Part shown: positions 530 through 25,458 of the stretch, one piece after another
Numbering within the stretch: position 1 is the stretch's first letter
How the letters are laid out: each line of letters opens with the position of its first letter
Virus record (IMG/VR): IMGVR_UViG_3300017585_000052
DNA: 25,658 nt
Origin: a virus
Lineage: Duplodnaviria > Heunggongvirae > Uroviricota > Caudoviricetes
Strand: one strand, 5' to 3'
The notes under the pieces: generated by a model
What the model saw: only the letters and a program-made list of their open reading frames with translations
The model's database searches: none
Told to the model about the DNA's origin: nothing
Position numbers and translations under genes: made by a program

Positions 530-3500
530 ATGGCGAGAAATAAAGTTAGTCTATATTACATATACAAGGCTACAAGCTCAGAGATTATCAATAATAACTT
601 TTAGATTAACACAACATTTAAGCAAGCCAAGTTATCAGGTAAGATAATTGCCATTGGTGACAATTAGGTCTTGAAGTTTATTCGTACACTAAAAGACCAA
701 CAAGATGTTTCCTCTTAGATTAAAGAATTGAAATCTAAAAAGAAACAGCTACTTCAAGAGAATCCTTGCAAACCAAAGGAAATCCAAGCAACGCAGAATT
801 AGATAAATGATTTAATGTTTGTCCCTGACCTTGTGTCAGTAAAGACAGATACCACAAAGAAAGATTATAAAGCTATCTGTAAAAATCATTTCTCGATTAC
901 AATAGAGATAAACAAACACACATATTCTATTAGATATAAGCGCTTATGCGCTGGTGCTGGACAACTTCGTAGAAATTCTGCATTATTTGTAAATGAAGAA
1001 TTATATGATATGCTCGAACAGATAATGCTATGTGGCTTGACAAGACATAAGATAGGCAAGATTAACTTAGCTAAGTTCTCTGCTTATTATGCGTTGTATA
1101 CGTCAGCCACTAATGTTGTTACTACGCCGAGAATATGTGTGGTTCCAGATTTTGAATACGACTTAAAAGATTAGGTTGTTGATTGGATTTTTGAGCGTGA
1201 TGACGGAACGCCAGATATTGAAAGGCGTAGTATTGATTTCAATATTAACGCATTTGACGGGTCTGGTATGGTTTCACCAGCTATGGCAAGAATATGGCAA
1301 GAGGATTTACATTTAGATTATTTGCCAAGCAGTTTTATACTCCGCGCCCCGTGGCATAAGGGGCTGGTTAGTGTCTTTGATTTCCACAAGTTTGCAAGAG
1401 AAGTAGCGCACACTGATACAATCACGGATATTTATGGAACTGAGTATAATATAGATAACATTGATGTAATATGTACAGCAAGTCAATTTAAGATGCACAA
1501 GTATTATGTCAATTATCAAGAGTTTGAATATAACTTCCATAAATACGGGCATACATTTGGTGTCACGAGGGTAAATAAGAAATACAGCGATTTTGCTACT
1601 CCATTAAATTATCAATACATCCAGAGCAACAATTTCACGGAAGAAACGATTAAGCAATTAGCAGAACCTACGGCAAGATGGTTGGACGGTTTACTTTCAT
1701 GTGACCCAATATACGCCACAATACTAATGACTGGCGAACAACAAGACAAAACATTTGACGAGCTGGAATCTTCTTTAGACTCACCTATTGCCAAAGGACT
1801 TTTATATAATCAAGATTTGTTAAAAGATGATTATGTTAAAAGCAAAATTAAGCAATAGGCGCAAAAGAAGATAGACCAAGCTAAGATTGGTAAATTATAT
1901 GTCGAAGGTAGTTACGATTTTCAATTACCAGACTTATACGCTATGGCTGAATGGGCTTTTAAGCTACCAGTTAAAGGATTATTGCCAGCAAAAACATTAT
2001 GGAACAGACGGTGGGTTGAAAAAGGTTCTGAAAGAGTAAGTTGCCAGAGAAGTCCTTTGGTTGCGCCAGCAGAAAATCAAGTATTAAATGTTTATTCTGA
2101 TGATAAATGTATAGAGTGGTTCAAATACATTCAATGGGGCAATATTCTTAACGTCTGGGACTTGACTGCGATTTCCGAATCCGACTCAGATTATGATGGT
2201 GATATAATACTTACCAGTGATAATCCAGTTTTGATGGGAGCTATCAATCCCGAACTGCCAGTGATTACTTATGAAAAGAAGAAAGCAAAAGCCCAAAGAT
2301 TGAATATGGAATCTTTTGCTAATTGGGACGTTAAATCTTTTGACAGTCCTATTGGTGGAATAACAAATCTCGCAAGCAACATTTATGCAATGCTGCCGTT
2401 ATACAACCCCGACTCTAAGGAATATGCCGAATTAGATAAGAGAATACGGCTCCTACGTCGAAGTTAGGGGGACGCCATTAAATTATCAGTGGCCTCTTAA
2501 TAGCAATATTTCGAGTAAAACTCTGTGAACCTATAAATATAGGGTGTCATTCGTAAGAATGGCTAACATGGGAATCTAAAGCAAAAGCTATGATAATCAT
2601 GTGCCAAGCCGTGAAAACGGAAGGTGCAACGACTAACCGGAAGAAATTCCGAAAGGGTAAATGCGAAATTCATTTGCCCGTAGTGCAGAGCAACCCATTG
2701 GGTTGAAGATATAGTCTAATCCCCTAAGAAATATCGGGAAACCGAGGGTAGTAAATGAGATAAAACCAAGGGCATTACTTATGTTCCACCCCCTAAGAAA
2801 TGGTCTAAGAAACAAAAATACATACAAATCCCAGAGGGTGCAACACAAGAACAAATAGCAACCATTAACAAGATGAATGAGCAAATTAAATTCGACAATA
2901 ATATCTGCTGCGATAAAAAGGCTTACTTCTTTGGTTACGTTTATCCTCAAAAAATGGTTGAGTATAAAGAGCATAAGAAAGTAGCAGATACCGAATGTAG
3001 AATTAAATTTGATATGGGTGTTAATGACTTAATTAAAATAGTGGATAAGAGTCCAGAGCAAAAGAAATTCCTAAGAGATTATTATAAATATTCTCCATTA
3101 TTTAACTCCAAATGCACAATGAATATCCTTGCTAAATATATTGAAGATATGGATTTCAGGTATCGTAGGATGCCAAAGACTGGAACATTTGACTTTAGAT
3201 GTCTAATGTCTTGCGATGTGGCAGACCTCGACAAGAGAAAACTGAATCAGTTTGTAAGACTTATTAAAAAATATATTCAGCTCACAGGAAGAACAAGTGT
3301 TAATATAGAATACGCCTCAAAGTATCTAACAGAGGATGAAAAGGACGATATGCGTAAGGTGTTATTTGACGCTCTTTACGAAGATTTCAAAAATGACGCT
3401 TTAGATTTGTCTGATAGTTGTGCAGATGCAGTAAACTATATTGTTGGAGCTTTCTACGCAACAGGAATGAAAGCACAAAAGTCACTATTGTGGACTTCAT

Positions 3501-3631
3501 TTGGTGATGAATTAGTAGAGAATATTAAAGCAAACTCAAAACATCGTTATAGGATAGTTGAGAATCCAAATGGCAAAGACTATTTTGGAAAGAAACTAAC
3601 AATGATTGATGAATACCAAGCATAGGAGTGA
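530..3631 (+). CDS. YonO-like phage RNA polymerase (two-barrel, RdRP-related), ~940 aa; join(530..2478,2758..3631); 8 in-frame TAG
   Basis: ATG at 530 after an AAGGAG RBS. ORFs 815-1174, 1268-1858 and 1943-2467 are in one frame and joined by TAGs (602, 665, 716, 800, 1172, 1856, 2465, 3623). Catalytic DxDGD motif (DSDYDGD). Splicing restores RRSQGDAI|DKTKG. Position matches SPbeta yonO upstream of HU and head genes. Confidence 0.85.
2479..2757 (+). ncRNA. group I intron 1 (279 nt, no ORF) in the RNAP gene
   Basis: Exon ends in U (GCCAT|), intron ends in G (GTAAATG|). P7 GACTA 2631-2635 / TAGTC 2712-2716 in AACGACTA and AAGATATAGTCT contexts. IGS GTGGC 2489-2493 pairs with the 5' exon and TTATC pairs with 3' exon GATAA. 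Removal restores the reading frame. Confidence 0.9.
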
Positions 3632-3635
3632 TTAA

Positions 3636-4388
3636 ATGTTATTTGATGAGCGTCCAGAATACGCGCAGAGAATATTAACATAGAATTACTTGTCTGAAAA
3701 GAAACCAGTCCCTGACGCTGCGTGTGTTATACGGTATCTAAGATACAATGGCAAGAGTGACGAAGAAATTACAAAAGTCTTAACGAGAATGCTCCGTAAG
3801 ATTTATTACACTCCAAGTAGACCAGATATGATGCCATATATTAAACCAGCGTTTCAAATGGCTGATAAGTTGCCACCAATCAGGACTGATAACCTATATA
3901 TATCTAAAGAGCAACTTGATATTATTGCCTCTATTGGCAATCCTGAATATGAAGATTTTGTATTTGCTGCTCTTTGTATTCAGGAGTATTACACGAATGA
4001 TAGGGATAAATACATTGTGAAGTTCAAGGACGCTTTGAATGTAGCTGGGATTTCCAGCTATAAGAAGGTCATTGATTTCCTGAGAAATACAGACCTCGTG
4101 ACACTACGCCAATTTCGCAATGTTCACTTCTTAGATTTGTCGGAGAGGCTATTTCCAGAAGAAAATTCAAAAAATTCTGGAATAGTCCTTGACAATTTCC
4201 TTGATTTGTGCTATTATTATGATGAGTACAGGGGGTATGGTAAATTTACCCGTTGCGAATACTGCGGACGGATAGTGAAGCAGCCCCGTAGCTCCTACCA
4301 GAATAATGGTCGGCATAGGAAATACTGTAAGACGTGCTGGAAACGTGTAAAAGAGATTAAGAGCCATAGTAGCAGATATACCGAATGA
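3636..4388 (+). CDS. hypothetical protein with C-terminal Zn-finger (CEYCG...YCKTC), 250 aa, 1 TAG
   Basis: GGAG RBS and ATG at 3636, reading through TAG 3681 into ORF 3690-4388. Confidence 0.75.
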
Positions 4389-4529
4389 ATGGTGAAAAAA
4401 ATGAATTAACCTAAAAGTCAGCGTTTTCTTATCATTCGCTTTTGTACCCAAATTTTATCTTACAATGAAACAAACGGGCGTTTCGCTTGTTTTGTTTACA
4501 TATATTAGATGCAAAGGAGACACACAAAT

Positions 4530-4706
4530 ATGCGTGTAGTCACTCGCTCACAATTTGACGAGTTGCGTGAGGCTGGACTTATTAGATTTGGTAGGAATAA
4601 GAACTATCGAATTATGAACAAGAATAAGTCTGGTAAGCGCAAGAAGTATGTAGTCGTTGAGGAACAGAAGATTTTGGACTTCCTCGACAGAAAGGCGGCA
4701 GAATGA
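4530..4706 (+). CDS. small basic hypothetical protein, 58 aa
   Basis: AAAGGAG RBS before ATG 4530; its stop overlaps the next start (ATGA). Confidence 0.7.
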   Translation: MRVVTRSQFDELREAGLIRFGRNKNYRIMNKNKSGKRKKYVVVEEQKILDFLDRKAAE

Positions 4707-5317
4707 GAAATGAAAGACTCGGTTCGTCCGCTATTGACGAAGAAGTAATGATGCCAAAACTTCTCGACAAAGACCGCATGGTTGCATAGCTGGCTTTCCA
4801 GAATCGTAAAGTTATGCTTTACGATGACGTGGACGATGATTCTATCTTTAGATGTATCTACACTCTAATGAGAATTAGAGAGTTTGACAATAAGACTGGA
4901 ATCAAAAAGCCAATTACCTTGTATATTGACTCATGCGGTGGGACTGTTTATGACGGGATGAGCCTAATTTCGCTCATTGAATCCATGCAAGACGAAGGTT
5001 ATCAAATTGATACCGTTAATATGGGCTACGCTATGAGCATGGGCTTTATTATTAGTCTTGTTGGTACTCATAAATATTGTTTTAGACATAGCACCTATAT
5101 GTATCATGATATTTCTTCTTTGGTTATTGGTAAATTAGCTCAGATGCAAGAGGATATTAAACAGACCGAACGTCTGCGCGATGAGATTACAGAGTTTGTG
5201 TTATCTAAAACAAAATTAACCAAAGAACAGTTATACGATATACATGAACATAAACGTGACGTATATTACACATCGAAGCAAGCGGTTGAGCTTGGGATTT
5301 GTGAGGAAATTATATGA
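4703..5317 (+). CDS. clpP: ClpP-like serine protease, 204 aa, 1 TAG
   Basis: Motifs LYIDSCGG, GYAMSMG (catalytic Ser), MYHD (His) and Y(Y)TSKQAVELGI. The N-terminus extends to ATG 4703 through TAG 4787. Confidence 0.8.
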
Positions 5318-5730
5318 AGGTAAAGGGAAAAGAAGTTTCGGATGAATTTGTTCAGGACATCATTGACGCTCTGATTGAGGAAGATTCTAAGAGTAAGTGT
5401 TCTTGCGGACATTGCGATGACTGCGATAAGGATGATATGGACAATGAGGTCAGCATGGAGATTAACAACGAGATTGTACAGAATATCGTTGCTGCCTCTG
5501 ATTTCCTCGACCCTGACGCTTTTGAGAATGGAGTAAAGAGTGTTTCTGAGCTGTGTGGCAAAGTTGCTGCCCTGTCTGCTGTTGGTATTGACCCTGTTCA
5601 GGCTTTGAATTATTTCGGCTCTATGATGGAGAACGAGTATGCTTTGAAGAATAACAAGCTGGTTACAGAAACCAACGGTGCTACGCAAGTTAAGTGCGCA
5701 GAGCTTGGCGCGGTTGCCAATATGTCCTAA
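5314..5730 (+). CDS. acidic hypothetical protein, 138 aa
   Basis: ORF track; ATGA overlap with the clpP-like stop; codon usage matches the phage's TAG-free genes. Confidence 0.75.
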   Translation: MKVKGKEVSDEFVQDIIDALIEEDSKSKCSCGHCDDCDKDDMDNEVSMEINNEIVQNIVAASDFLDPDAFENGVKSVSELCGKVAALSAVGIDPVQALNYFGSMMENEYALKNNKLVTETNGATQVKCAELGAVANMS

Positions 5731-5766
5731 ATTTCAAAAATTTTTCAATTTTTTTATCAAAACCCC

Positions 5767-5795
5767 TTGACAAAGTTGGGGAGTTATGCTATAAT
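5767..5795 (+). promoter_or_regulatory. consensus sigmaA promoter driving HU and the tRNA island
   Basis: TTGACA 5767-5772, 17-nt spacer, TG-n-TATAAT 5790-5795. The upstream CAAAACCCC and T-tracts are shared with the 206-234 promoter. Confidence 0.85.
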
Positions 5796-5869
5796 GATTA
5801 CACAAAGAGAGCAAATCTCTTGAATATAAAGGTCTATACAGACCACGAATACAAAGGAGTTTACATAAT

Positions 5870-6142: not shown

Positions 6143-6173
6143 CAAACGAGGGTGGCTCGTCCACCCATTATAT

Positions 6174-6345: not shown

Positions 6346-6419
6346 TGGCTCTTGGTGTAAAGGTAGCACGGAACCCTTTGAAGGTTTAGAAGTTAGGTCG
6401 GTACTAACAGGGCCAGCCA
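6346..6419 (+). tRNA. tRNA-Gln(TTG)
   Basis: TGGCTCT/AGGGCCA acceptor, GAACC-CTTTGAA-GGTTT anticodon arm, encoded CCA. Confidence 0.9.
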
Positions 6420-6432
6420 CAACGCATAGCCA

Positions 6433-6539
6433 TAGACGCATACAGCAATTCGTCAGACAGATAGTCAAATGGTAAAGACAAAAGATTGTCCATCTTTTAA
6501 TGCGAGTTCGATTCTCGCTCCGTCAAAATACCGCGTCTA
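6433..6539 (+). ncRNA. ACAGCAA clamp element, copy 1 (encloses degenerate tRNA-Asp)
   Basis: TAGACGC 6433-6439 / GCGTCTA 6533-6539 stem; ACAGCAA 6442-6448. Confidence 0.6.
6455..6526 (+). tRNA. degenerate tRNA-Asp(GTC), no encoded CCA
   Basis: AAAGA-TTGTCCA-TCTTT anticodon arm, GCGAG-TTCGATT-CTCGC T arm, GTC/GAC D stem; two mismatches in the acceptor stem. Confidence 0.7.
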
Positions 6540-6600
6540 ATTTTTATAAAGACATTTCCGACAAAATGTTGTTTAACATAATATGTACCTCTTTCTGACT

Positions 6601-6773
6601 TAGATGCGCACAGCAACCTAACCTAACGAAAATTTTAGATTATGTAATTTTGATAACAGACTTGCTGATGCTGTGTCACGACACAGTTTTCAGGAGCGTA
6701 TCTTGAACCGCTAAGTTCGACATTTCTTGGTTCGTATAACCGTATTGGTTGTATGTAAATGCAAACGCATCTA
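6601..6773 (+). ncRNA. ACAGCAA clamp element, copy 2 (multi-hairpin insert)
   Basis: TAGATGCG 6601-6608 / CGCATCTA 6766-6773 stem; ACAGCAA 6610-6616. Confidence 0.55.
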
Positions 6774-6814
6774 CTTTTAATTGATAAACACCTCATAGGT
6801 TTTAATATAAGTCT

Positions 6815-6874
6815 TAGGCGGTCACAGCAACATAAGTTTTTATAGCGTGGTATTATAAAAATCAACACCGTCTA
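6815..6874 (+). ncRNA. ACAGCAA clamp element, copy 3 (single hairpin insert)
   Basis: TAGGCGGT 6815-6822 / ACCGTCTA 6867-6874 stem; ACAGCAA 6824-6830; inner TTTTTATA/TATAAAAA hairpin. Confidence 0.6.
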
Positions 6875-6879
6875 TACGT

Positions 6880-6953
6880 AGGTTCTTAGTATAATGGTAG
6901 TATATCTGTCTCCAAAACAGAGGGTAAGCGTCCGACTCGTTTAGAACCTGCCA
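6880..6953 (+). tRNA. tRNA-Trp(CCA)
   Basis: AGGTTCT/AGAACCT acceptor, TCTGT-CTCCAAA-ACAGA anticodon arm, encoded CCA. Confidence 0.9.
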
Positions 6954-6983
6954 TTCGTTTCATTATTCATTGTTAATCAGTTT

Positions 6984-7049
6984 TAGGCAGTTACAGCAGC
7001 TTAATCAAGTATTTGACTGTTAATCAAACTCACTAAAAAAAACTGTCTA
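6984..7049 (+). ncRNA. ACAGCA clamp element, copy 4 (encloses an Asn anticodon stem-loop)
   Basis: TAGGCAGTT 6984-6992 / AACTGTCTA 7041-7049 stem; ACAGCAG 6993-6999; inner TTTGA-CTGTTAA-TCAAA. Confidence 0.6.
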
Positions 7050-7056
7050 TTTGTTT

Positions 7057-7130
7057 CGAGAATGTAGTATAACAGTAATACACTCGCTTTGGGAGCGAGA
7101 ATAGTGGGGCAGCACCAACATTTTCGACCA
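7057..7130 (+). tRNA. tRNA-Pro(TGG)
   Basis: CGAGAAT/ATTTTCG acceptor, CTCGC-TTTGGGA-GCGAG anticodon arm, encoded CCA; atypical T arm. Confidence 0.85.
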
Positions 7131-7313
7131 GAAAGTCCTTGCTTAACGTATATCTAAGAATAAACAAGCTATTTGTTCTTTAATATACGCGATTACCAAA
7201 TGGGTTGTACAGAACGCAAGTAGTATTCCCACTTTCACCACTCGTGGCTATGGACACGTTAAACCCATAGCATTGGTCTTTAGATGTTAGACCTAAAAGA
7301 AACATTTTAACAT

Positions 7314-7398
7314 CGGCAATTACCCAATCGGAAACGGGAGCTGTCCGTAAAACAGCCGCCTTTGTGCTTACTTAGTTCGACACTAAGATTGCCGACCA
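7314..7398 (+). tRNA. tRNA-Tyr(GTA)
   Basis: CGGCAAT/ATTGCCG acceptor, GCTGT-CCGTAAA-ACAGC anticodon arm, long variable arm, CTTAG-TTCGACA-CTAAG T arm, CCA. Confidence 0.9.
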
Positions 7399-7464
7399 TC
7401 CGTTATTGCGGAGCATTAAACGACTTGCCCTTGATGGTATTCAACCCGCCATCGGGGGTTATAT

Positions 7465-7538
7465 TGGAACATCGTACAGCGGAAGTACCAGTGACTGTTA
7501 ATCACTATATCTAAGTTCAACTCTTAGTGTTCCAGCCA
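7465..7538 (+). tRNA. tRNA-Asn(GTT)
   Basis: TGGAACA/TGTTCCA acceptor, AGTGA-CTGTTAA-TCACT anticodon arm, CTAAG-TTCAACT-CTTAG T arm, CCA. Confidence 0.9.
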
Positions 7539-7804
7539 TAGCTGAACGCAAACGAGCGTTGCCGCGATAAAACATTGGGTGGGTCAAGACGCGCCAATGT
7601 GGAGCAGCTATCAGGGGTTTGGTGGATTCCACGACTTGAATAGGTCTAAAAGACCGAAAGAAAACACCACTTTATTTTCAAGGTGAGCCACTACCGTAAG
7701 TGCGGAGCTAACAAAGTGGTTTTGACAGTTCCATCCAAACACTATTGGTAAATACTGTCATATATGAATATTCAACTTAATTGCTTTAGATTGGAGTCGA
7801 TACT

Positions 7805-8108
7805 ATGAAAAAGCAAATCGAACAAATAGTTTTCGATGAGAAAACTGGCGAAATATTTTAGGATTATGTAACGGTTAAAGAAAGCAAACTGTGGAAAGAT
7901 TGTGTAGGTGGTATGATGAAGCCTCGAAATTATCATAAGAAGCTCTACAACGACCTCCCACTTTAGGACTATATTACAAACGAAGCTGATTTATTTAAGA
8001 CTTATAAATTGGATGAAAGAGAAGTATGAAGAACTAAATAGTGACCCAAATAAACCTACGAACAACGATAGTTTGTTCGTAGACGAAACCGAAGAAGATG
8101 AGGACTAA
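7805..8108 (+). pseudogene. short or frameshifted ORF remnant (74 aa to TGA 8029 with 2 TAG; acidic C-terminus continues in another frame to TAA 8108)
   Basis: GGAG RBS, MKKQIEQIVFDEKTGEIF*DYV...; an overlapping frame reads NWMKEKYEEL...DETEEDED-stop. Confidence 0.4.
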
Positions 8109-8269
8109 TTTTTCATATAATATATAATTGTATATATGAAAGTTGGGGTCATCAAAATGGGACTTTACCAATAAAACATTAACAAAATCGACTTTCAAAA
8201 GTGCCCCTCACAGGGGCAAAAAAGGCCGATTTTGCCCCTAAAAAGGGCAAAAATTTTTAGGGGATATAT

Positions 8270-8330
8270 ACCAACATAGTTTATATAGTAAAACATTGAT
8301 AACAGAGTGCAAATCTCTGTGTTGGTTCCA
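8270..8330 (+). ncRNA. tRNA-like RNA lacking an anticodon arm, CCA-ended (61 nt)
   Basis: ACCAACA/TGTTGGT acceptor, GTTT/AAAC D stem, 8-nt linker ATTGATAA, CAGAG-TGCAAAT-CTCTG T arm, T discriminator + CCA. Confidence 0.65.
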
Positions 8331-8399
8331 GCCTGACTTTCAGGCAAAGCAATTACAGTTTTGTCCGTGGCAGACTTCGACTCCCTGTCACGGATATAT

Positions 8400-8485
8400 G
8401 GTACTATGGCAGAGTGGTTTATTGCATCAGTCTTGAAAACTGACGGCGTTAATAGCGCCCCTTGGTTCAAATCCAAGTAGTATCG
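8400..8485 (+). tRNA. tRNA-Ser(TGA), CCA not encoded
   Basis: GGTACTA/TAGTATC acceptor, TCAGT-CTTGAAA-ACTGA anticodon arm, long variable arm GGCG/CGCC, CTTGG-TTCAAAT-CCAAG T arm. Confidence 0.9.
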
Positions 8486-8520
8486 CTTCTCTCTTAGATT
8501 TTCAAAGGTGTATACGCTAT

Positions 8521-10796: not shown

Positions 10797-11903
10797 ATGC
10801 CGAGAGGTAGACCGCGCAAAACAACCACTACGACCACTACTAAGACCACAAAGGTGGCTAAAAAGCAAGAACCAGAACAGCCTAAGATTGTGTGTATAGG
10901 ATGCGGTTGTGCAACACAGACTAACTTCTATATGGCTCGTGATGAGCATAGGAGCTTTTTTAGAAAAGTACCTTATTGTAAAGACTGTGTAAACAAAATA
11001 TTTAAGAATTATCTAAGACTAAAGGGCGGGAATTATAATCTCGCCCTTTATTATACTTGTAGAAAAATAGATTTGCCGTATATACATTCTGCATATACTG
11101 GCGCAGTAGATAACGTCAATAATCCCAATTCTAATATCAAAGGCATGGATAACCTAATGTCTGCATACATGAAGAATATGTCATTTGCAGACGCTAATGG
11201 TTGGGGTGCTACATTTGATGAAAGCGTTGGAGAGGATTAGATTGACGGCCTTTCTTCGTTTGAAGATATTGTCAAAGTCAGAAGAAAAGTTGGTCTAAAA
11301 ACAAGCAGCGATAATGATTTTGACGTTATCGAAATGGACGCAGATGAACTCATGCGTAAGTGGGGAAGATTTGATAATGATGACCTTGCCTATCTTGAAT
11401 CTGAGTACATGGATTGGGAAGAACAGTTGAATGGCATTGTTGATAAGTATGTTGATATAATGGTTAAACAAGTATGCTTAACATTAAATGAGATTAGACA
11501 TGACCGTGAATCAGGTCAACCTGTCGAAAAGAAAGTCCAGAGCCTGAGAAATCTAATAAAGGATTCTGGGTTGTCTGATTTACAGAAGAATGATGCTGTT
11601 GAACAAGGAACTGGAATGACTATTCGAGATATTGAATTTAAGCGTCCAGTTAAAACTGTTGACCCAGATTTTGAAGATGTCGATGGTATGCGTCTTGTTA
11701 TAGACGCAATACTTGGTGGCACTTCAAGAGCAGTTGGAAAAGAAAATGAGTTTACTGAGAGATTTGACGAAGAATATAGTAAATATACTATTGATATTAT
11801 AGAGGACTTAAAGGTTCAATACGGATTAGATAATAAGAAAGCTGAAATTACATAGGTTGAAGAACCAGTAAATTCTGAAGGCGGTGAGCCTAAGAATGAG
11901 TAA
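10797..11903 (+). CDS. Zn-finger protein, candidate terminase small subunit, 368 aa, 2 TAG
   Basis: ORFs 10797-11240 and 11334-11855 are in frame via TAGs 11238 and 11853 and end at TAA 11903, overlapping the TerL start. CIGC...YCKDC motifs; directly upstream of TerL. Confidence 0.65.
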
Positions 11904-14143
11904 TTCAGTTTATATTAGAAGAAGAAAAAAGGTCAACAAATCTAAGACTAAGAGATTTATGGAGAACTTCGAGGCGTGGGTTGCATATTGGAGAGCAAAC
12001 CCTCAAAGGTTTATCACTGAATATCTTGGTCTTAAATTATATGATTTTCAAAAAGTTCTAATATACATGATGTTCATGTACCCCTCATTTATATTTGCAG
12101 CAAGTCGTGGCCTTAACTACGCAGGGCTTTCGGGCAAAATCGGTAGAAGTCGAGAAACGATGATACCGAGGTAACTTCTTAGATGACGAGAGGCTATGAA
12201 GTACCGTAGAGCATAGAAGATGAATAAATATAATTCTTCCAAGAGTGTCCGACACGAAAGTGAAAATATATGCCGAGCTAACGGGTTGAACCGTTAGAAC
12301 TGTCGGATAAAAAGCTGGCAGGATAACAAATATTTTGTGCGAAATCAACTTTGAGCTTGATATTTGCAACGGCTTATTGCATATTATATCCGGGAACAAC
12401 CGTTGTCGTAGTTGCTCCTACTAAGGGACAGTCCACGAGATTTGTTAAAAAGATACAAGAATTAGCTCGTGGAAGAAAGAACTTATAGGCAGAAATTAAG
12501 GCTGTTAAAACTGGTCTAAATGAAAGTCGCATAGACTTTAACAATGGCTCTGCTATAATTACTCTGCCGTATTCCGAGAACAGCTTGGGCGCACGTTGCC
12601 AGATTCTTATTGTTGACGAATTTGTTCGTACAGAAAAAGAAGTTATCAGTCGTGTATTTGTGCCTATGCTGACGAGTCCCCGTACTCCTGATTATACTGA
12701 ATTAACTAAGCAGCAAAGAGAGGCTATTCCAGAGGAACCGAATAAACAGTTATATCTGTCAAGTATTCGTGGTGCTGATGAATGGTCTTATGCTTACTTC
12801 TTAGATTATATAAATTATATGACCGATGGCGATGGTAAACATATTGCTGTCGCTTTACCTTATAATCTTGGAGTTAAAAACAAATATATTTCAAGAGCTA
12901 TAGTTGAACAATCCTTTAAGGAAAACCAAGATTCTGTTGAGATGTTGCTTGCTGAATATTGTGTTCAGGCAGAGCGTTCTTCTGGCGATGGTTTCTATAA
13001 ATACAACCAGATTGCAGAGAGAAGAACACAAGCTCGACCAATGGTAGCAATGAATGACTTTGAGTTTGTTGAGAATAAAGATGATAAATCTAAATGGAAA
13101 TATTATCAAGAGAAACTTAAAAATGAAATCAGAATAATGAGCATGGATATAGCTTTAGTCTCTGGTAAAAGTAATGACAATACCGCTTTCTGGATTCTTA
13201 GAATGATTCCAGAGGGGGCTGGATATAGAAGAATATTCCAGTTCTGCGAAACAATGAACGGCATCAACTCCCTCGTACAATGCCTAAGAGCAAAACAGTT
13301 ATTCTATGAATTTGACTGTGATTACTTTGTCATTGACGGGGCTGGCGTGGGGCGAAAAAGAGATTGCCCTCTTAATAGAAATATTAAGTAATTAAATTGG
13401 TATAAAAACTGGAATCCTGAAATGGAAATCAGAGCGGAAGTTTATAAATAATATTATAAACACGCGCAACGCATAGGTGTTGAAACTCGAAAGAGAATAT
13501 AATACACCCAAGAGATACCAACTCTAAGGATTTAATCTAAGAGAAAAGATATGCTGAACTAACAGGAATTTTAACTGTTAGATTTATGGGATAAAAAGCC
13601 CATAAGATAACAAATGAATCATGCCTTGATATTATGATGACTAAGACAGAAGATAAGGCTCGTGGAGAACTTTATCCAGCATGGACAGTAGTTAATCCAG
13701 AGGACGTGAAGAACGCTTCTCGCGTGTTAGATGATGACGCTGTTCCTGTTGTTGATTGCGTTAAGACTTCTATTGCAGATAAAAGCCGTATGTTGCTTTA
13801 TGCTCGTGACCAATTCTCTATTGGCGGTGTAGATTTGCTTGTTGATAGAGAGGACGGAACAGATTATCTAAATCAGACATTTAAGTTCCATAAAGAAGAA
13901 AATCAAGAAGTCAGAGGTAGAGTATTACAATCTTTTGCTCAGACTTCCGCATTTATAAACGAGGCTATAAATCTAAAACAAGTAACAGTCCAAGGTCGTT
14001 ATCCCAGCGTTGTTGAAAAGGCTGGTAGACGCAAGGATAGAGTTATGAGCTTCATTTATGCTTTAGATTTTTCAAAACAACTTGAAGATAATATGAATAA
14101 ACAAACAGATGTGAACATATTTGACTATATGTTCTTTACGTAA
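11896..14143 (+). CDS. terL: terminase large subunit, ~586 aa; join(11896..12113,12338..13353,13617..14143); 1 TAG
   Basis: Splicing restores Walker A ASRG|LAKST. Walker B ILIVDEF; RNase H motifs MSMDIAL and VIDGAGVG|Q; C-terminal RKDRVMS. TAG at 12486. Confidence 0.9.
12114..12337 (+). ncRNA. group I intron 2 (224 nt) in the TerL Walker A motif
   Basis: GGCCT| ... TTTTG| ends. IGS CGCA-GGGCT 12120-12128 pairs with both exons (P1 with U.G; P10 with TGCG). P7 GCATA 12211 / TATGC 12269. Confidence 0.9.
13354..13616 (+). ncRNA. group I intron 3 (263 nt) in the TerL nuclease domain
   Basis: IGS GATT-GCCCT 13362-13370 pairs with exon GGGGC and 3' exon AATC. P7 GCATA 13471 / TATGC 13550. Ends in ACAAATG. 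Removal restores the frame (GVGQSCLDIMM). Confidence 0.85.
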
Positions 14144-19449: not shown

Positions 19450-19488
19450 CTATTGTTGTGAACAACAACGGAATAAAGGGGATATTAT

Positions 19489-20154
19489 ATGTCAGAACTT
19501 AATAAAGATTTGAATGAACTAAAGAAAGAATTTCAAGAATCTCAGAATAAACAGGCAGAATTTAATAGCCGTATTTTAGATTTACTTACACAGCTTACAT
19601 CCTCTAAGGTTGAAGCACAGACTTCAAGACCAGAGGAAATTAAGCATGAGGTGGTTAAGAAAACGTACACGAATCTAAAGCAGCCTCACGCAGATGAGAT
19701 GATTCAGGTTCAGTCTATGACTAAAGGTACGTTGAGCTTAAATGTTGGCGGTAAGCCGAAGCTCGTGTTCGAGCGTTACGGTATGATTAAGCCAGCTCTT
19801 TATGGAGATTTGGTTAATATCGTAAATGAGAACCGTAGTTTTGCAGAGGAAGGCTCTTTCTATATCTTAGATGATAGAGCGGTTTATCACCTTGGCCTTG
19901 CTTCTGCTTACAATAACCTGTTATCTCCTGATGATGTCGAAAATATAGAGGAATATAGTTACGAGCAGATTCAGACGTTACTTGCTAATCTAACAGAAAA
20001 GCAGAAATATATGCTCGTCAGAGTTTTGACTGATAGAATATATAATAATGAACGTGTTGACCACAATAAGATTGAAGCTATTAGTAAGGCGTGTGGAGTT
20101 GATATTAACTCCAAAGTACGTGAAATGAGAGAAATTGCTAATAGTATGAGTTGA
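19489..20154 (+). CDS. hypothetical virion morphogenesis protein, 221 aa
   Basis: AAAGGGG RBS; directly downstream of the major capsid gene. Confidence 0.75.
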   Translation: MSELNKDLNELKKEFQESQNKQAEFNSRILDLLTQLTSSKVEAQTSRPEEIKHEVVKKTYTNLKQPHADEMIQVQSMTKGTLSLNVGGKPKLVFERYGMIKPALYGDLVNIVNENRSFAEEGSFYILDDRAVYHLGLASAYNNLLSPDDVENIEEYSYEQIQTLLANLTEKQKYMLVRVLTDRIYNNERVDHNKIEAISKACGVDINSKVREMREIANSMS

Positions 20155-20167
20155 TGGTGGTGGTATA

Positions 20168-20952
20168 GTGAATACGTCTTTTCAAGATATATACCATCTA
20201 TTCCTAAATTCTATTCAGGATTATAATATTAGGAATATGTTCAATAATAATGTTGCGGTAGCAGAAGATATGTTATCTACATTCTTAGCAAGAAGTATTC
20301 CTAAATTTTATAATTGTGTTAAAGATATAAGAACCACCGATATTTCTTCTGGTGAGTTCCCTTGTGAACTTGATTTAGAGGAAAAAAATATTCTCGCGGA
20401 ACTTATGGTACTCGCATGGCTTGATTGGGTCATTAGTGATATTCGTCAAATGAATATTCATCTTAATGATAATGATTGACGCAAGATATACTGTATTCTT
20501 GCATAAGTCCTACGTACAAGTGATTGTATGTTGAAACCGCTTGAAATGCTGGAAGTCCCTTAGAGGCTATAACTAAAACAGAAAGATGAAATATGCTTAA
20601 ATGGACAGTTAAAAAATATAGCATTGGGTAATCAGCAGGGAAGTCCCGAAAAGGGGAACCCTCAACGACCATTGGTTGAAATACCAGTAGGAGAAATCCG
20701 AAGTGGGCGGCTCTCTTAATTATTATATTTGAAAATGATATTTTCATATTAAGAGATGAAGATATGGTCTGTGCTTACGCGAGAGCGTAAGATTAACATA
20801 AACAGTTTAAGCATTACAGCGAAGAATCCAATCTAAAGCAAAAATCCGAGTATTCCGATAGGCTACGCGAAAAGGTTAGTCAAGATATGACAAATTATGG
20901 TTTGTATAGAACCGAATTTTCTAAGTGGGCGGCGGGTGATTATGGTGTCTAA
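20168..20952 (+). CDS. putative head-tail connector (neck) protein, 151 aa; join(20168..20476,20806..20952)
   Basis: Splicing joins LNDND|FKHYSEESNLK... and continues to TAA 20952, which overlaps the next gene; position in the neck module. Confidence 0.7.
20477..20805 (+). ncRNA. group I intron 4 (329 nt) in the neck gene
   Basis: AATGAT| ... AAACAG| ends. P7 GACCA 20667 / TGGTC 20765 in CAACGACCA and AAGATATGGTCT contexts; GAAATGCTGGAA and AATCAGCAGG P/Q-like elements. P1/P10 were not clearly resolved by eye. Confidence 0.85.
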
Positions 20953-21256
20953 AGTAACTAATGTTACACAAGAAAACATGAAAGTTTATACTGACCGTTG
21001 CATCAATAGACTTTTCGCAATTCTTGGCATTTATGAAGATTGTCAGACCAAGAACGACTTTACAAGTTATAAACTCTATCTTGACAGACTTATTGTTGAG
21101 TTTGATGGATGCTATGAGCTTTTCAGAACTGATGTGTTTATTTCTATGGTCGGCGTACTTGAAGGTATGCGCAACCGTGATTTATCACACAAGGAGGTCA
21201 AGTCCTTAGTATTTCATCTGATTTCCCTTGTCAAGAAGGGTGCTGGTGCAAAATGA
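20942..21256 (+). CDS. hypothetical protein, 104 aa
   Basis: ATG 20942 after GGGTGA, overlapping the stop of the spliced upstream gene. Confidence 0.7.
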   Translation: MVSKVTNVTQENMKVYTDRCINRLFAILGIYEDCQTKNDFTSYKLYLDRLIVEFDGCYELFRTDVFISMVGVLEGMRNRDLSHKEVKSLVFHLISLVKKGAGAK

Positions 21257-22464
21257 ATTACTACGATTCATTCATGGCAGTAAACGGCAATCCTAAAGAT
21301 AAGTGGTATGAAGATTTCCAAGAATTTCAAGAACAACAATTTGATGATGCGTCAACCGTTCAAGACGATATTGAAGAAGAAATTGAGTTCGGTACATTAG
21401 AGTTCAAACCAATCCGAGCCAGATTAACGACCATTATTGACGTTAAGACTGGACAAAGAAATGGTGACGATTTTAGAAAGATTACTTTCCTTGATTATAC
21501 TCACCGTCCTGTTCCCGGAACTCGATATAGATTTGACGATAATATCTGGATGGTTTTCGCAACAAAGAATCTAAAAGTAAGTTCTTCAAGTGTTTATGTA
21601 TATAGATGTAACACTACACTGAATACTTAGGATAAGTATGGTAATATACACAGAGAACCAGTGTATATTGATTACAAGCTGAATGAAACTCAGCTTTATC
21701 AGGGCGAACAAATAGAGGTTCCACAAGGCCGCTTAAATGTTGTTGCACAACTTAATAAGTGGACTAAAGATTGGAATGTTAATAAGAGATTTATTATCGG
21801 CGATGACCCGTATAAGATTAGATACCGCTCAAAACATGAGCGCGAGAAAACTTTTGACATTGATTCAAGAAGCGTAGTTCAATTCTATGTTATGTATGAC
21901 AATGAGGCAGTCAATGACAACAAAGAGTTGCAAATTGCGGACTACTTGGAGAATATTTTTGCAATACAATGTGAATCTAAGATAGCAGAGACTGCTGGAA
22001 CAACTGGCACGATTTCGACTTCTGTTACCATGAACGGACAAGAAGTTGTTGAACCCGTTGAATATTACAGCGGAGACACTTCTATTATTACAGTAGACGA
22101 GAATGGTAATTATACTTGTGTCGCGGACGGAGAGACTACAATTACTGTTTAGATGACGAATAAACCCTCTTGTATTTCCACAATACAAGTTACAGTGGGT
22201 GAAGTTGAAAAAGAAGTTGCAGTCACACCAGATGTTCACAAAATTAGACTCAATGAAGAAGTTTCTTATACGATTACTTCTGATGAAGAAGTAACGATTA
22301 CTGCTGATTCCGATAATCCCTCTTATTACTATAAGTTTACCGTGACAGGTTCTAATACATTTACGATGAAAAATCTAAAGCAATCTCAATATCCTGTTAT
22401 AATAACGTACTCTGTCGGAGATATTACTGGCACATTTGAAATCACGTTAGGAGGCATCATCTAA
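21253..22464 (+). CDS. head-closure-like structural protein with C-terminal Ig-like (Big-2-type) repeats, 403 aa, 2 TAG
   Basis: ORFs 21253-21630, 21661-22152 and 22153-22464 are one frame joined by TAGs. Ig-like signature YYSGDTSIITVDENGNYTCVADGETTITV. Confidence 0.7.
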
Positions 22465-23027
22465 TGGCTCATTATGAAGAACTAAGTCCTATACTTAATG
22501 GCGTTGTTGGTGGTCGCTTCTTACGAGATAAGAAATTGTGCAAATTACTTTATGATTATATTCCGAACGATAGTGATGAGAATTATGTTGATTATGAAAA
22601 GAACCCTAACGCTCTTTTTATGACCCATATCTACCCTCTACCTAAAATGCCCGATGCTAAAACTGAGAAAAAGTGCTATATTTGCGCTTATTTCAATGGA
22701 GGCTATGAGGTGGATGAGAATGAAGGTTATAGAAATGTGTTATTACTGGTTGATATAATTTGTCATTTAGATGTTTGGTTTGACGATGACGGTTATCGTG
22801 TATACGATATAATGTCAAGAATCGACACGTTGCTCAATGGATAGTATACAGATTTGCCCATTCAGGGAACTCCTTATCTGAGAGGATTCCAGACGAGGGT
22901 ATATGCCGATTATTTCTATGGGGTACAGCTTATGTATAATCTAAAAGTAAATAGCACTGTTGAATGTAACAAGCCAACAATATCTTCTCTAATACGAACA
23001 GGTGGCGTGTATGACCCTACCAACTGA
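22464..23027 (+). CDS. putative tail-completion/terminator protein, 187 aa, 1 TAG
   Basis: Reads through TAG 22842 to TGA 23027; located upstream of the tail tube gene. Confidence 0.6.
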
Positions 23028-23865
23028 TGAGCAGTTGATGTTTGGCAAAGGATTGAAGCTAACGAATAAAGTGTCTGTTATTCATCCTACATTAGAGTAG
23101 GTTGTTAATGACGATAAATATGACGAGTTTCTTCCGTACCTTATGTTTACTTCTGAATAGGTGGCAGACGTACTATGGGTTGAAAACCATATATTATATA
23201 AGGACTTAAAAAGTGAGTGGGATTTCTTTTTACAACAATGTATTGCTGGCGGGAAGTCGCATGACGTTCTGTTCAACAAGAATGGCATTAAATATGTTGA
23301 AAAGGATTGCTTGATTATAAATTCTACTTACAGAGATGCTCTTAATTATTTTTTATCTTTAGATTGTGAATATATTGTCTATCATAGAAAGACAGGCAAT
23401 ATGGAACAAGATATATTATATTCGTTGTCGGTTGATGGCGACAACTACACATATAATGAGGGTAATTTCTTATTTACTGAAACATTCTATATGTTGACAT
23501 TAAAGTATCTAAGAAAGATAAACTGTTTTGACCCGAAATATTATTGGCAAACTGCTGGCAATAGAAAAGCGTTAAAGACGTTTTTGGAACGCGAGTATCA
23601 AGCTAGTCAGCGCAGAATGAAGAAACCCAAACCAGAAACTGTCACTCTTGGTAGTATCATGTCTGGATTAGTTGCTCGTGGTTAGCCTTATGATAAGATA
23701 GGCAACTACCCTATTTATATGATATTTGATTTACAACGCCGATTTGAAAAAATTGACGAGTATAACAGTACAATGCAAGGAATTTACAGCGGCTGCATTG
23801 ATACGCAGAAGCATCCTGTTGATTGGGAAAAAATCAACTGGGCCGCTGTTGTTAAAAACAAATAA
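23011..23865 (+). CDS. hypothetical tail-assembly protein, 284 aa, 3 TAG
   Basis: ATG 23011 reads through TAGs 23098, 23158 and 23683 to TAA 23865. Confidence 0.7.
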
Positions 23866-23882
23866 GAAATGGAGTGTTTTTG

Positions 23883-25458
23883 ATGGCAAACGCAATACCT
23901 AAAAAGTTTTCAATGCAGCAATGCTTTGAAATCTTGCTGAGAAAGCCCTCAGACAAGTCTATTATTGGTTATATGCAGGACTGCAAGACTACCGGACTGG
24001 AAAACACTATCGAACTGGTTTACCCAACCGGCGAACTAATACGCCGCCGCCTATATTCGTGAGAATATCTGAATAACGCTTTTAACTGCGGGAACATCCT
24101 TAGAGCGTAATATACTAAATTATTATAGCGATATAATAGTGGCTTAACTAATCATTAAGGTACAGTAACAAGTATTGCGATTGGAAAATCCGCAACTAAG
24201 ATTCTCTTTTAGGTGTGAGAGAATAAAGCTCAACGACTATCCTGAGAAGCTGTGTAAATCAGCAATAGGAGTAGGGCGCAAGTGCGTGGGTGAGAATCCC
24301 TTAAATCGAAATGGAGCGCATCTGTTAAGTACAGATGGTGATATAGTCTCAACTTCTGTGGAGACACAGAGACATTTATATGTGGTAAACTTTACGAGTT
24401 TATTAAGACGATATTGGGCGCAGGCAATGTCTATGTAGGGGTGACTTTCTTGGTAGCGGCCCCCTCTGTTTGCAAAAAGCAGAGAAAATTCTTCTAAGTG
24501 CTGGAACTCCTAACGGCTAATCTAACTACAACGTAACTGGCGACAGTAAGCGTGAACGTGACGAAAGTAGAAAAAATAGATTAGAGGGCGCATGGTTAAA
24601 TCCTAAACGCTGCATAACGGACAATCAGCAAGTAAGATTACTTTTTAGATTAAAGTAATAAACTTCAACGACTATCCCGACAGGGAGTAGGAACAAGCGT
24701 TCCGAAATGGAGAATACCCAATAATGGGTAGTGATATAGTCTAATCTCATAAGTAATTATGAGCTGTTTACTTTTCGACATGGTAAACGGGTAGTGATTA
24801 GCGAACACTATCGAATTTTAATGGCGCATTTGGTCACAGCAAACGTGCTACTCTGAATGTCGAGTCTGCAACTTACAGCACTGCTATTATGGCTCTGCAA
24901 AATGGTACTGAACTGGCTGTTGGTTCTCACGAGATTACTGCCTTTGACGTTATCGAAGTTACCTCCGATATGGTTACTAACGGCGTGACTCTGAACCATA
25001 CTCCTGTCGGTGCTACTGGTTCTGAGATTGGCTTTGCTTATCTCGTAAATGAGGATGGCTCTTTTGGCACTGAGTTCACTCAGGATGCTACCGCGAGTGC
25101 GACTACTTTTACCTACGCTGATGGCGCGATTAAGTTCGGCACTGATGCTATTGCTGTTGGTGACAGAGTTGCTTGTGCGTACACCTATAAGAGTGCTACC
25201 ACCGCAGAGCGCATTACTCTCGAAACTGACACTATTCCGGGCATGGCTCTTGTTACTTGCTTTGGCGTGGCTAAGGATGTTTGCTCTGAGCAGACTTATC
25301 CTTGCCAGCTTGAAGGCATTGTTCAGATTGACGGTAACTGGAACCTCGACCTGTCGGCTGATGGCGACCCCGTTGTTCAGTCTGTGAACATGGAGTTTGT
25401 CCGTAGCTGCTTGGAGAAGCGTCTGTACACCTTTACTGTGTACACCGAGGACGAATAA
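23883..25458 (+). CDS. major tail tube protein, 269 aa; join(23883..24032,24417..24442,24825..25458)
   Basis: Splicing gives ...LVYPTG|GAGNVYVGV|AFGHSKRATLNVESAT...; biased codons typical of high expression; terminator downstream. Confidence 0.8.
24033..24416 (+). ncRNA. group I intron 5 (384 nt) in the tail tube gene
   Basis: P7 GACTA 24235 / TAGTC 24344. IGS CGCC-GCCG 24042-24049 pairs with 3' exon GGCG and 5' exon CGGC. Ends in ATATTG. Confidence 0.85.
24443..24824 (+). ncRNA. group I intron 6 (382 nt) in the tail tube gene
   Basis: GGGGT| ... TAATGG| ends. IGS GCG-GCCCC 24456-24463 (P1 with U.G; P10 with CGC). P7 GACTA 24670 / TAGTC 24737; AAGTGCTGGAA and AATCAGCAAG P/Q elements. Confidence 0.9.

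What the first reader, a model, noticed from the sequence alone, without database searches (positions are those of the whole stretch)
2479..24824. Six ORF-less group I introns in 22 kb, mostly in virion and packaging genes
Seen: introns of 224-384 nt in RNAP, TerL (2), a neck gene and the tail tube (2). Each has a P7 core and a terminal G, five have readable P1/P10 guides, and each restores frame. RNAP and TerL sites hit conserved motifs (QGDAI|DK, Walker A SRG|LAKS, DGAGVG|Q). None encodes a homing endonuclease. Established: phage group I introns are mostly reported in DNA-metabolism genes (td, nrd, pol), with some in terminase and structural genes. Inference: heavy invasion driven by free-standing endonucleases or reverse splicing, and virion production depends on both splicing and recoding.
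Basis: partly seen in the sequence, partly recalled or inferred. Interest (0 to 1): 0.7.

Follow-up and report, generated by a model that had tools for sequence, protein, structure and literature searches.

The report
Six endonuclease-less introns in phage late genes
Six short self-splicing (group I type) introns really do interrupt the RNA polymerase, terminase, a head-tail gene and the tail tube of this SPbeta-like gut phage; this is a dense example of a known phenomenon, and two of the introns belong to a widespread intron family that the standard Rfam model misses.

Summary
Observation confirmed. The window is an SPbeta-like gut phage contig that reads TAG as Gln. Six insertions of 279, 224, 263, 329, 384 and 382 nt split the YonO-like RNA polymerase, TerL (2), a head-tail gene and the YomU-type tail tube (2, flanking a 26-nt exon). 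Removing them gives open frames of 940, 586, 151 and 269 aa. These align without gaps across all six junctions to uninterrupted genes of a complete relative (61-73% identity).

Four introns reach the Rfam RF00028 gathering score. The two TerL introns match no Rfam family. They do belong to a structured RNA family with strong covariation and group I topology (P3/P7 pseudoknot, P4-P6, P7.1, P8, P9, J8/7 AAGAUAU). A model built only from other phages finds both (130 and 53.5 bits).

All six end in G. Five have adjacent P1/P10 guides. Two splice after C instead of the canonical U. None carries an endonuclease gene, and none was found in the 39-kb contig, although homologous introns in a relative carry HNH genes.

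Closest relatives are intron-free at all six sites. The same TerL and tube sites are occupied sporadically in other phages. Verdict: new members of a known kind (compare the three-intron Twort tail tube gene). Splicing itself is untested.

The parts
530..2478 (+). YonO-like single-subunit RNA polymerase, exon 1 (contains DYDGD motif, 7 in-frame TAG)
   Evidence: PHROG 8308 (E=3e-91) and Pfam RdRP PF05183. It aligns to SPbeta YonO and to G001 as part of one 939-aa HSP.
2479..2757 (+). RNAP intron, 279 nt, group I. The 5' exon ends in U and the intron ends in G.
   Evidence: RF00028 gives 50.0 bits, E=4e-10, at 2489-2738. P1 is GCCAU/GUGGC and P10 is 5 bp. The intron is absent from L005 and G001. 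Its 3' end is 95% identical over 57 nt to a Twortvirinae TerL intron.
2758..3631 (+). RNA polymerase exon 2
   Evidence: The spliced ORF is 940 aa with no stop under TAG=Q. The junction aligns with no gap to G001 and L005.
11896..12113 (+). TerL exon 1 (ends inside Walker A: AASRG-L)
   Evidence: SPbeta YonF residues 30-87 align here. PHROG 15503 also matches.
12114..12337 (+). TerL intron 1, 224 nt. It is a divergent member of the Rfam-negative group I-type family.
   Evidence: There is no Rfam hit. Model R1, built without window sequences, scores 53.5 bits, E=2.9e-12, at 12128-12254. P1 is GGCCU/GGGCU and P10 is UGCG/CGCA. Relatives L089, L091, L100 and L122 have similar introns at the same site.
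12338..13353 (+). TerL exon 2 (ATPase remainder, start of nuclease domain, ends ...IDGAGVG + C)
   Evidence: YonF 89-417 aligns here. Pfam Terminase_6N matches.
13354..13616 (+). TerL intron 2, 263 nt, same family. The 5' exon ends in C.
   Evidence: There is no Rfam hit. R1 scores 129.7 bits, E=6e-33. P1 is GGGGC/GCCCU and P10 is AAUC/GAUU. P1 covaries with the exon across orthologous introns. The same site in L005 holds a 1137-nt version with a 289-aa HNH ORF in P8.
13617..14143 (+). TerL exon 3
   Evidence: YonF 422-588 aligns here. The spliced TerL is 586 aa and forms a single 73%-identity HSP on G001.
20168..20476 (+). Head-tail ('neck' position) gene, exon 1
   Evidence: PHROG 3853 positions 1-105 of 146 match. 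The function is unknown, and the adaptor look-alikes are weak leads only.
20477..20805 (+). Neck-gene intron, 329 nt, group I. It has U before and G at the end, and no clear P1/P10 guide.
   Evidence: RF00028 gives 72.9 bits at 20488-20791. The true 3' splice site lies 14 nt past the model end, fixed by the reading frame and by gap-free alignment to L005 and G001. The guide search was inconclusive.
20806..20952 (+). Neck-gene exon 2
   Evidence: The spliced ORF is 151 aa and aligns to G001 with 0 gap columns.
23883..24032 (+). Tail tube (YomU-type) exon 1
   Evidence: It aligns to L005 and G001. ESM-Atlas look-alikes for the G001 orthologue are the YomU_Tube family, score 0.97.
24033..24416 (+). 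Tube intron 1, 384 nt, group I. The 5' exon ends in C.
   Evidence: RF00028 gives 60.8 bits at 24012-24371. P1 is CGGC/GCCG and P10 is GGCG/CGCC. It shows 79-87% nucleotide matches to Staphylococcus phage sequences, among them the ORF30/ORF32 region of phage K and a stretch just upstream of the RQ1 major tail protein CDS. Relatives L167 and L172 are interrupted at the same site.
24417..24442 (+). Tail tube mini-exon, 26 nt (GAGNVYVG + 2 nt)
   Evidence: It matches GAGNVYIG of G001 and GKGNSYIG of L005.
24443..24824 (+). Tube intron 2, 382 nt, group I
   Evidence: RF00028 gives 75.7 bits at 24433-24763. P1 is GGGGU/GCCCC and P10 is CGC/GCG. Relative L171 is interrupted at exactly this site.
24825..25458 (+). 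Tail tube exon 3
   Evidence: PHROG 2729 'virion structural protein' matches. The spliced tube is 269 aa and forms a single HSP on G001.

Best explanation
All six insertions are group I-type self-splicing introns that are removed from late mRNAs. Each intron is thought to work in the standard way. Its guide sequence pairs with the end of the upstream exon (P1) and the start of the downstream exon (P10). An external guanosine bound in P7 attacks the 5' splice site. The intron's last G then takes that site, and the exons are joined. This restores the YonO-like RNA polymerase, TerL, a head-tail protein and the YomU-type tail tube.

Four introns are conventional IA2-like phage introns related to Staphylococcus phage introns. 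The two TerL introns belong to a separate, widespread lineage with the same core topology that the Rfam model does not detect.

The introns are site-specific mobile elements that have lost their endonuclease genes or never had them. They most likely arrived by endonuclease-driven homing from ORF-bearing copies such as those in relatives.

Shown here: the insertions, the exact frame restoration, the conserved and covarying structure, the intron-less alleles, and the site polymorphism. Inferred: that splicing actually occurs, that it is autocatalytic, and how the introns spread.
For: - Four RF00028 hits reach the gathering score (repeated on the whole contig).
- SPbeta YonF aligns contiguously across both TerL junctions.
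- The spliced ORFs have no stops. They align gap-free at all six junctions to uninterrupted genes of G001 (single HSPs, 61-73% identity) and of MT835481.
- TerL-type family: the motif occurs in 74 IMG/VR contigs. On a plain MAFFT alignment of 40 sequences, 91.3% of cells pair, against 63.8% when shuffled and 30-40% when slid. 30 of 33 pairs show compensatory change, and 0 of 500 shuffles reach the observed value.
- The P3 pseudoknot is present in 52 of 61 members, against 15.3 after partner permutation. The P7.1 helix is intact in 56 of 61, with 26 distinct helix sequences.
- Model R1, built without the window, finds both TerL introns and nothing else in the window.
- The junction strands resemble the canonical ones: CAACGCAUA against CAACGACUA, AAGAUAUGC against AAGAUAUAGUC, and GG-AA...AAUC for P4/J4-5.
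- The exon-guide pairing covaries at the TerL-2 site: GGGGU/GCCCC, GGCGU/GCGCC and GGGGC/GCCCU.
- All six end in G, and five have adjacent P1/P10 guides.
- A true stop (TAA or TGA, never TAG) lies in frame 3-61 nt into every intron.
- The same sites are occupied or empty in different relatives: five TerL sites with up to 4 introns per gene, and both tube sites.
Against: - There is no RNA evidence, so splicing is inferred.
- The TerL introns give no RF00028 hit even at E<=10. None of 16 family members scanned hit it either. Their group I status therefore rests on topology and junction motifs, and P7 itself is invariant and so untested by covariation.
- The RNAP intron only just reaches the Rfam cut-off.
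- Two introns have C-G instead of the nearly universal U.G at the 5' splice site. From my own recollection of work on the Tetrahymena ribozyme (not checked in a paper here), such a change lowers activity.
- The neck intron has no convincing P1.
- In Bastillevirinae, half of the introns that spliced did so only in infected cells (PMC11878797), so true self-splicing may not hold for all six.
Confidence: 0.88

Rival explanations
1. The two TerL insertions are not group I introns. They are a distinct, so far unclassified class of structured intervening RNA that merely shares some motifs. They would be removed by another mechanism or need a protein partner.
For: Rfam gives no group I hit, even at E<=10, for either intron or for the 16 relatives scanned. 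The family has its own invariant elements (CCAAGAG, a GAUAAAAAGC loop, a GAUAACAA tail) that are not in the canonical consensus. C occurs at the 5' splice site in three independent members.
Against: The order of helices is exactly that of group I subgroup IA: P3, P4-P6, P7, P7.1, P3', P8, P7', P9. P3 crosses P7. J8/7, J6/7-P7 and P4/J4-5 resemble the canonical strands. A terminal G and an adjacent P1/P10 guide are present. The exon-guide pairing covaries. Members carry HNH or I-TevI-like ORFs in P8, as mobile group I introns do. The published view is that the Rfam model is incomplete for phage introns (PMC11878797).
Confidence: 0.07
2. The insertions are dead remnants or assembly artefacts. 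On this reading the genes are broken and the contig represents a defective phage or a chimeric assembly.
For: The contig is a metagenomic fragment, 34% complete. No RNA data are available. The neck intron lacks a readable guide.
Against: All six insertions restore frames to the nucleotide. The ribozyme cores are intact and score as well as or better than functional family members. Every intron has an early in-frame TAA or TGA. The same introns sit at the same sites in independent contigs and in cultured, plaque-forming phages such as Enterocloster CB457P2 (TerL) and Staphylococcus 6ec (tape measure).
Confidence: 0.03
3. Question of spread only: the introns were installed and are maintained by free-standing endonucleases or by reverse splicing, rather than by loss of an intron-borne endonuclease gene.
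For: All six lack ORFs. Free-standing endonucleases that target intron sites are known from my own knowledge (T4 and cyanophage psbA). The contig is only a third of the genome, so such genes could lie elsewhere.
Against: A six-frame search finds no HNH or GIY-YIG in 39 kb. Homologous introns at the same TerL-2 site, and in the RNAP of MT835481, carry HNH ORFs inside the intron. Insert sizes at shared sites fall into short (about 250-380 nt) and long (about 960-1270 nt) classes. That pattern fits gain and loss of an internal ORF.
Confidence: 0.25

Closest known systems
Staphylococcus phage Twort orf142 (tail tube gene) with three group I introns
   Same: It is a tail tube gene of a Firmicutes phage with several ORF-less IA2-type introns. 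Two of them flank a tiny exon: 23 nt there (PMC10136302, PMC11878797) and 26 nt here. Tube intron 1 shows nucleotide-level similarity to Staphylococcus phage introns.
   Different: The phage type differs (SPbeta-like siphovirus relative, TAG-recoded, gut). There are two introns, not three. Skipping the 26-nt exon would shift the frame. Tube-1 follows a C, not a U. Splicing is not tested here.
TerL introns of Twortvirinae and Bastillevirinae (Herelleviridae)
   Same: TerL is split by more than one group I intron at conserved motifs. In phage PSU6, TerL is annotated in at least three pieces. Terminase is one of four intron-bearing gene families in Bastillevirinae (PMC11878797). The 3' end of the RNAP intron here is 95% identical over 57 nt to one of those TerL introns.
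   Different: The TerL introns here belong to another lineage that Rfam does not detect. They carry no endonuclease, whereas 32 of 45 Bastillevirinae introns do.
Cluster J mycobacteriophage capsid and tail introns (LittleE, BAKA, Optimus)
   Same: These are group I introns in virion genes, and the BAKA tail intron is short (265 bp) and ORF-less. [quoted passage not shown]
   Different: Those phages have one intron per genome, high-GC actinobacterial hosts and no recoding.
T4 td, nrdB and nrdD (sunY) introns and SPbeta bnrdE/bnrdF introns (own knowledge)
   Same: They are subgroup IA phage introns with P7.1/P7.2, and homing is driven by intron-borne endonucleases. SPbeta-type phages are known intron hosts.
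   Different: Those introns sit in nucleotide-metabolism genes at a density of about 3 per 169 kb in T4. Here there are six in 22 kb of late genes, including the phage's own RNA polymerase.

Membership tests
Group I intron (Rfam RF00028 / structural definition) | Score at or above the RF00028 gathering threshold (50 bits) | tested here: inconclusive
   Met by four introns: 75.7, 72.9, 60.8 and 50.0 bits. Not met by the two TerL introns, which give no hit at E<=10. The model is reported to be incomplete for phage introns (PMC11878797).
Group I intron (Rfam RF00028 / structural definition) | Core topology: P3 and P7 form a pseudoknot that encloses P4-P6 and P8, with a conserved J8/7 | tested here: met
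   The four Rfam alignments show it. For the TerL type, P3, P4/P5, P6/P6a and P7.1 are supported by covariation and P8, P9 and P9.1 by RNAalifold. P7 (GCAUA/UAUGC) is complementary but invariant.
Group I intron (Rfam RF00028 / structural definition) | Last intron nucleotide is G (omega G) | tested here: met
   All six end in G at the only boundary that keeps both the frame and the alignment to intron-less homologues.
Group I intron (Rfam RF00028 / structural definition) | The 5' exon ends in U, paired with G in P1 | tested here: inconclusive
   U.G with a readable P1 in the RNAP, TerL-1 and tube-2 introns. The neck intron has U but no clear P1. C-G in TerL-2 and tube-1. C recurs at the TerL-2 site in L122 and L124.
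Group I intron (Rfam RF00028 / structural definition) | Internal guide sequence pairing with both exons (P1 and P10) | tested here: met
   Five of six have contiguous guides of 4-5 bp plus 3-5 bp at intron nt 11-17. P1 covaries with the exon at the TerL-2 site. The neck intron is inconclusive.
Group I intron (Rfam RF00028 / structural definition) | Guanosine-dependent self-splicing | not testable with these tools
   This needs in vitro transcription and splicing, or RT-PCR.
Subgroup IA (IA2-like phage introns) | Extra helices P7.1/P7.2 between P7 and the 3' strand of P3 | tested here: met
   The neck and tube introns have inserts of about 30 or more nt at that position (alignments). The TerL type has a covarying P7.1 helix there. 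No subgroup-specific models were on hand, so the subgroup name is by architecture only.
Mobile (homing) group I intron | Intron-encoded homing endonuclease | tested here: not met
   No endonuclease domain lies in any intron or in the 39-kb contig. Relatives' homologous introns do have HNH ORFs.
Mobile (homing) group I intron | Presence/absence polymorphism at the same site in related genomes | tested here: met
   TerL sites were surveyed in 42 loci and tube sites in 37 loci. G001 and L005 are intron-less at 6 and 5 of the six sites.

The most novel reading that the evidence does not exclude
The TerL-type introns represent an undescribed subgroup of group I introns. This subgroup is invisible to RF00028 and has its own invariant elements (CCAAGAG before P3', a GAUAAAAAGC loop, a GAUAACAA 3' tail). 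It tolerates C-G at the cleavage site. It is widespread but unannotated in late genes (TerL, tape measure, capsid) of Firmicutes phages, cultured ones included. In this phage, splicing of the polymerase mRNA together with TAG read-through would act as a double timer on late gene expression.
Probability: 0.3. Interest if true: 0.55.

Novelty: new member of a known kind. Interest (0 to 1): 0.45.

Why it matters
- Gene calling: gene callers break TerL, the tube and the polymerase of this phage into 11 fragments. Correct exon joining matters for phage taxonomy, because TerL trees are standard.
- Intron load: a lineage can go from none of these six introns to all six in its essential late genes while close relatives stay clean at those sites. 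That makes it a useful natural case for studying intron gain and endonuclease loss.
- Detection gap: the TerL-type family exposes a concrete gap in Rfam-based intron detection. It is present and unannotated in cultured Enterocloster, Clostridioides and Staphylococcus phages, where splicing could be tested directly.
- Cleavage-site chemistry: natural introns with C at the 5' splice site offer a test of how strict the U.G rule is.

Tried and rejected
- Rfam at E<=10 on the two TerL inserts returned only noise.
- An Rfam scan of 16 loci carrying the TerL-type motif gave no group I hit at the motif.
- tblastn with SPbeta proteins found the RNAP, TerL and one further structural protein (YomW), but no neck or tube homologue.
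- Pfam gave nothing for the neck, tube or capsid genes.
- A PDB sequence search with the G001 tube and neck proteins gave nothing.
- AlphaFold2 of the tube orthologue with a 14-row alignment was poor (mean pLDDT 45.8), so no fold search was run.
- The Staphylococcus phage RQ1 tail gene was too distant to compare insertion sites.
- Inteins were considered and rejected, because the inserts are out of frame and full of stops.
- Group II introns were rejected on size, on the absence of their boundary motifs and on the absence of an Rfam group II hit.
- Translational bypass or frameshift was rejected because the inserts are 224-384 nt long.
- Truly separate gene fragments were rejected because Walker A and an 8-aa piece would then stand alone.
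- A literature search for an earlier description of the 6ec tape-measure intron found none.

Full report
**Context.** The window is the first 25.7 kb of a 39,181-nt IMG/VR viral contig, estimated 34% complete. Gene order and protein similarity place it with SPbeta-like phages: a YonO-type RNA polymerase, an HU-like gene, TerL (YonF), portal and a head and tail module. In-frame TAG codons join otherwise broken frames. The RNAP alone has 8, so I read the DNA with TAG=Gln throughout. Earlier notes of this scan reached the same code.

**Are the insertions there?** Yes.
- Rfam finds four group I introns at or above the gathering score: 2489-2738 (50.0 bits), 20488-20791 (72.9), 24012-24371 (60.8) and 24433-24763 (75.7).
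- TerL is in three pieces. SPbeta YonF aligns as residues 30-87, 89-417 and 422-588 in three different frames.
- Using the reading frame, the terminal G and homologue alignments, I set the boundaries at 2479-2757, 12114-12337, 13354-13616, 20477-20805, 24033-24416 and 24443-24824.
- In the RNAP, neck and both tube introns, the real 3' splice site lies 14-61 nt beyond the end of the Rfam match.
- The spliced ORFs are 940, 586, 151 and 269 aa with no internal stop.

**Test against intron-less alleles.**
- A complete relative, G001 (112,960 nt), has all four genes uninterrupted. The spliced proteins align as single HSPs at 68, 73, 70 and 61% identity. There is no gap at any of the six junctions, for example VYPTG|GAGNVYVG|VAFGHSK against VYPTGGAGNVYIGTGFGHSR.
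- MT835481 (human faeces) is intron-less at five of the six sites.

**What are the two TerL inserts?** Neither matches any Rfam family even at E<=10. They resemble each other (alignment z = 10.3) and two inserts in the TerL of MT835481.
- A conserved motif retrieved 74 IMG/VR contigs. Sixteen of these were scanned, and none hit RF00028 at the motif.
- On an unfitted MAFFT alignment of 40 members (window excluded), a structure I wrote by hand pairs 91.3% of cells. Shuffled partners give 63.8% and slid partners 30-40%. 30 of 33 pairs show compensatory change, and 0 of 500 shuffles reach the observed value.
- The long-range helix P3 is present in 52 of 61 members, against 15.3 after permuting partners. 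A helix between P7 and P3' (P7.1) is intact in 56 of 61, with 26 different sequences.
- RNAalifold adds P8, P9 and a further 3' hairpin, all with compensatory changes.
- The order of elements is P3, P4, P5, P6, P7, P7.1, P3', P8, P7', P9. That is the group I pseudoknot with the subgroup IA insertion.
- The single-stranded joints resemble the canonical ones seen in the window's other introns: CAACGCAUA against CAACGACUA, and AAGAUAUGC against AAGAUAUAGUC.
- A covariance model built from those 40 sequences finds both window introns (129.7 bits, E = 6e-33; 53.5 bits, E = 2.9e-12) and nothing else in the window, the rest of the contig or G001.

I therefore file them as group I by architecture, not by model match.

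**Splice-site anatomy.**
- All six introns end in G.
- Five have a contiguous guide at intron nt 11-17 that pairs with the last 4-5 nt of the upstream exon and the first 3-5 nt of the downstream exon.
- The neck intron has none I can defend.
- At the TerL-2 site the exon and guide covary among orthologous introns: GGGGU/GCCCC, GGCGU/GCGCC and GGGGC/GCCCU. This independently fixes that splice site.
- Two introns (TerL-2 and tube-1) follow a C that pairs with G, not the usual U.G. The same C is seen at the TerL-2 site in two other contigs. No other boundary keeps both the terminal G and the protein alignment.
- Every intron has an in-frame TAA or TGA 3-61 nt after the 5' splice site, never the recoded TAG.

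**Mobility.**
- No intron holds an endonuclease ORF. A six-frame search of the whole contig finds no HNH or GIY-YIG.
- In MT835481 the intron at the TerL-2 site is 1137 nt, with a 289-aa HNH ORF in P8. Another HNH-bearing intron splits the DYD|GD catalytic motif of its RNAP.
- Across 42 related TerL loci, inserts recur at five sites. These are the window's two sites, Walker B and two others. There are up to four per gene, and sizes are about 250 nt or about 1000-1600 nt. The closest five relatives have none.
- Across 37 tube loci, 29 are uninterrupted. Both window sites are used elsewhere, and two loci probably carry both introns.
- The complete relatives G001, G003 and G004 have no RF00028 hit above the cut-off.

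So this lineage is heavily and recently invaded. Ordinary homing followed by ORF loss, or mobilisation in trans, explains it more simply than reverse splicing.

**Comparison with the literature.**
- Twort orf142, now known to be the tail tube gene, has three group I introns. Two flank a 23-nt exon, and exon skipping occurs (PMC10136302, PMC11878797).
- Terminase is among the four gene families found to carry introns in Bastillevirinae, and a nearly identical catalogue is reported for Twortvirinae (PMC11878797). In the Twortvirinae phage PSU6, TerL is annotated in several pieces.
- Cluster J mycobacteriophages have capsid and tail introns, one of them ORF-less (PMC3706429).
- The Bastillevirinae paper states that the Rfam and GISSD models probably miss phage introns.
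- The stop-codon recoding survey notes fragmented terminases caused by mobile introns (10.1101/2021.08.26.457843).

The kind is therefore known. What this window adds is the density (six introns, 1861 nt, in 22 kb), an intron in the phage's own late RNA polymerase, and a clean view of an Rfam-negative intron lineage. That lineage also sits unannotated in cultured phages: Enterocloster CB457P2 TerL (119.5 bits) and Staphylococcus 6ec tape measure (44.3 bits).

**Gene labels.** 'RNAP' is secure (PHROG, Pfam RdRP, YonO alignment), and so is 'TerL'. 'Tail tube' rests on position, a PHROG 'virion structural protein' hit and ESM-Atlas look-alikes in the YomU_Tube family. 'Neck' is positional only.

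**Limits.** No RNA data were available, so splicing, its autonomy and its timing are inferred. The contig is a fragment, so endonucleases and an amber suppressor tRNA may lie elsewhere.

Noticed in passing
window 7562-7672: A drum RNA (RF02958, 65.9 bits) sits inside the phage tRNA array, between tRNA-Asn and an ORF-poor stretch.
   Followed up: no
window 6346-8486: The tRNA array holds Gln(UUG), Asp, Trp(CCA), Tyr, Asn and Ser(UGA), plus an Rfam-only tRNA at 7058-7126 whose loop reads as Pro(UGG). No CUA (amber) suppressor tRNA lies in the window, although TAG is read as sense.
   Followed up: partly
L005 (MT835481.1) 808-1755: The relative's RNAP has a 948-nt intron with a 249-aa HNH-type ORF. 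It is inserted inside the catalytic DYD|GD motif, a different site from the window's RNAP intron. Its 3' end resembles the window intron's 3' end.
   Followed up: partly
L021 247-886: On an IMG/VR phage contig, a tmRNA gene (156 bits) is followed 17 nt later by a group I intron hit (68.7 bits). The pair could be an intron-associated or split tmRNA locus.
   Followed up: no
L029 3932-3994: A type-P5 twister ribozyme lies on a phage contig that also carries a TerL-type intron.
   Followed up: no
window 24175-24438: An 87-aa ORF (TTG start) lies wholly inside tube intron 1 and has no Pfam or PHROG match. It is probably a chance ORF.
   Followed up: partly
G001 (L129/L130) versus window: The intron-free relative G001 also has far fewer in-frame TAGs in the same genes: RNAP 2 against 8, and TerL 0 against 1. 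Intron load and recoding depth rise together in the window lineage.
   Followed up: no
L083 (Enterocloster phage CB457P2) 1899-4722: The cultured phage's TerL is annotated as separate hypothetical proteins. A TerL-type intron sits at the Walker B site. A second insert near the window's TerL-2 site carries an 'intron-associated endonuclease 1' gene.
   Followed up: partly
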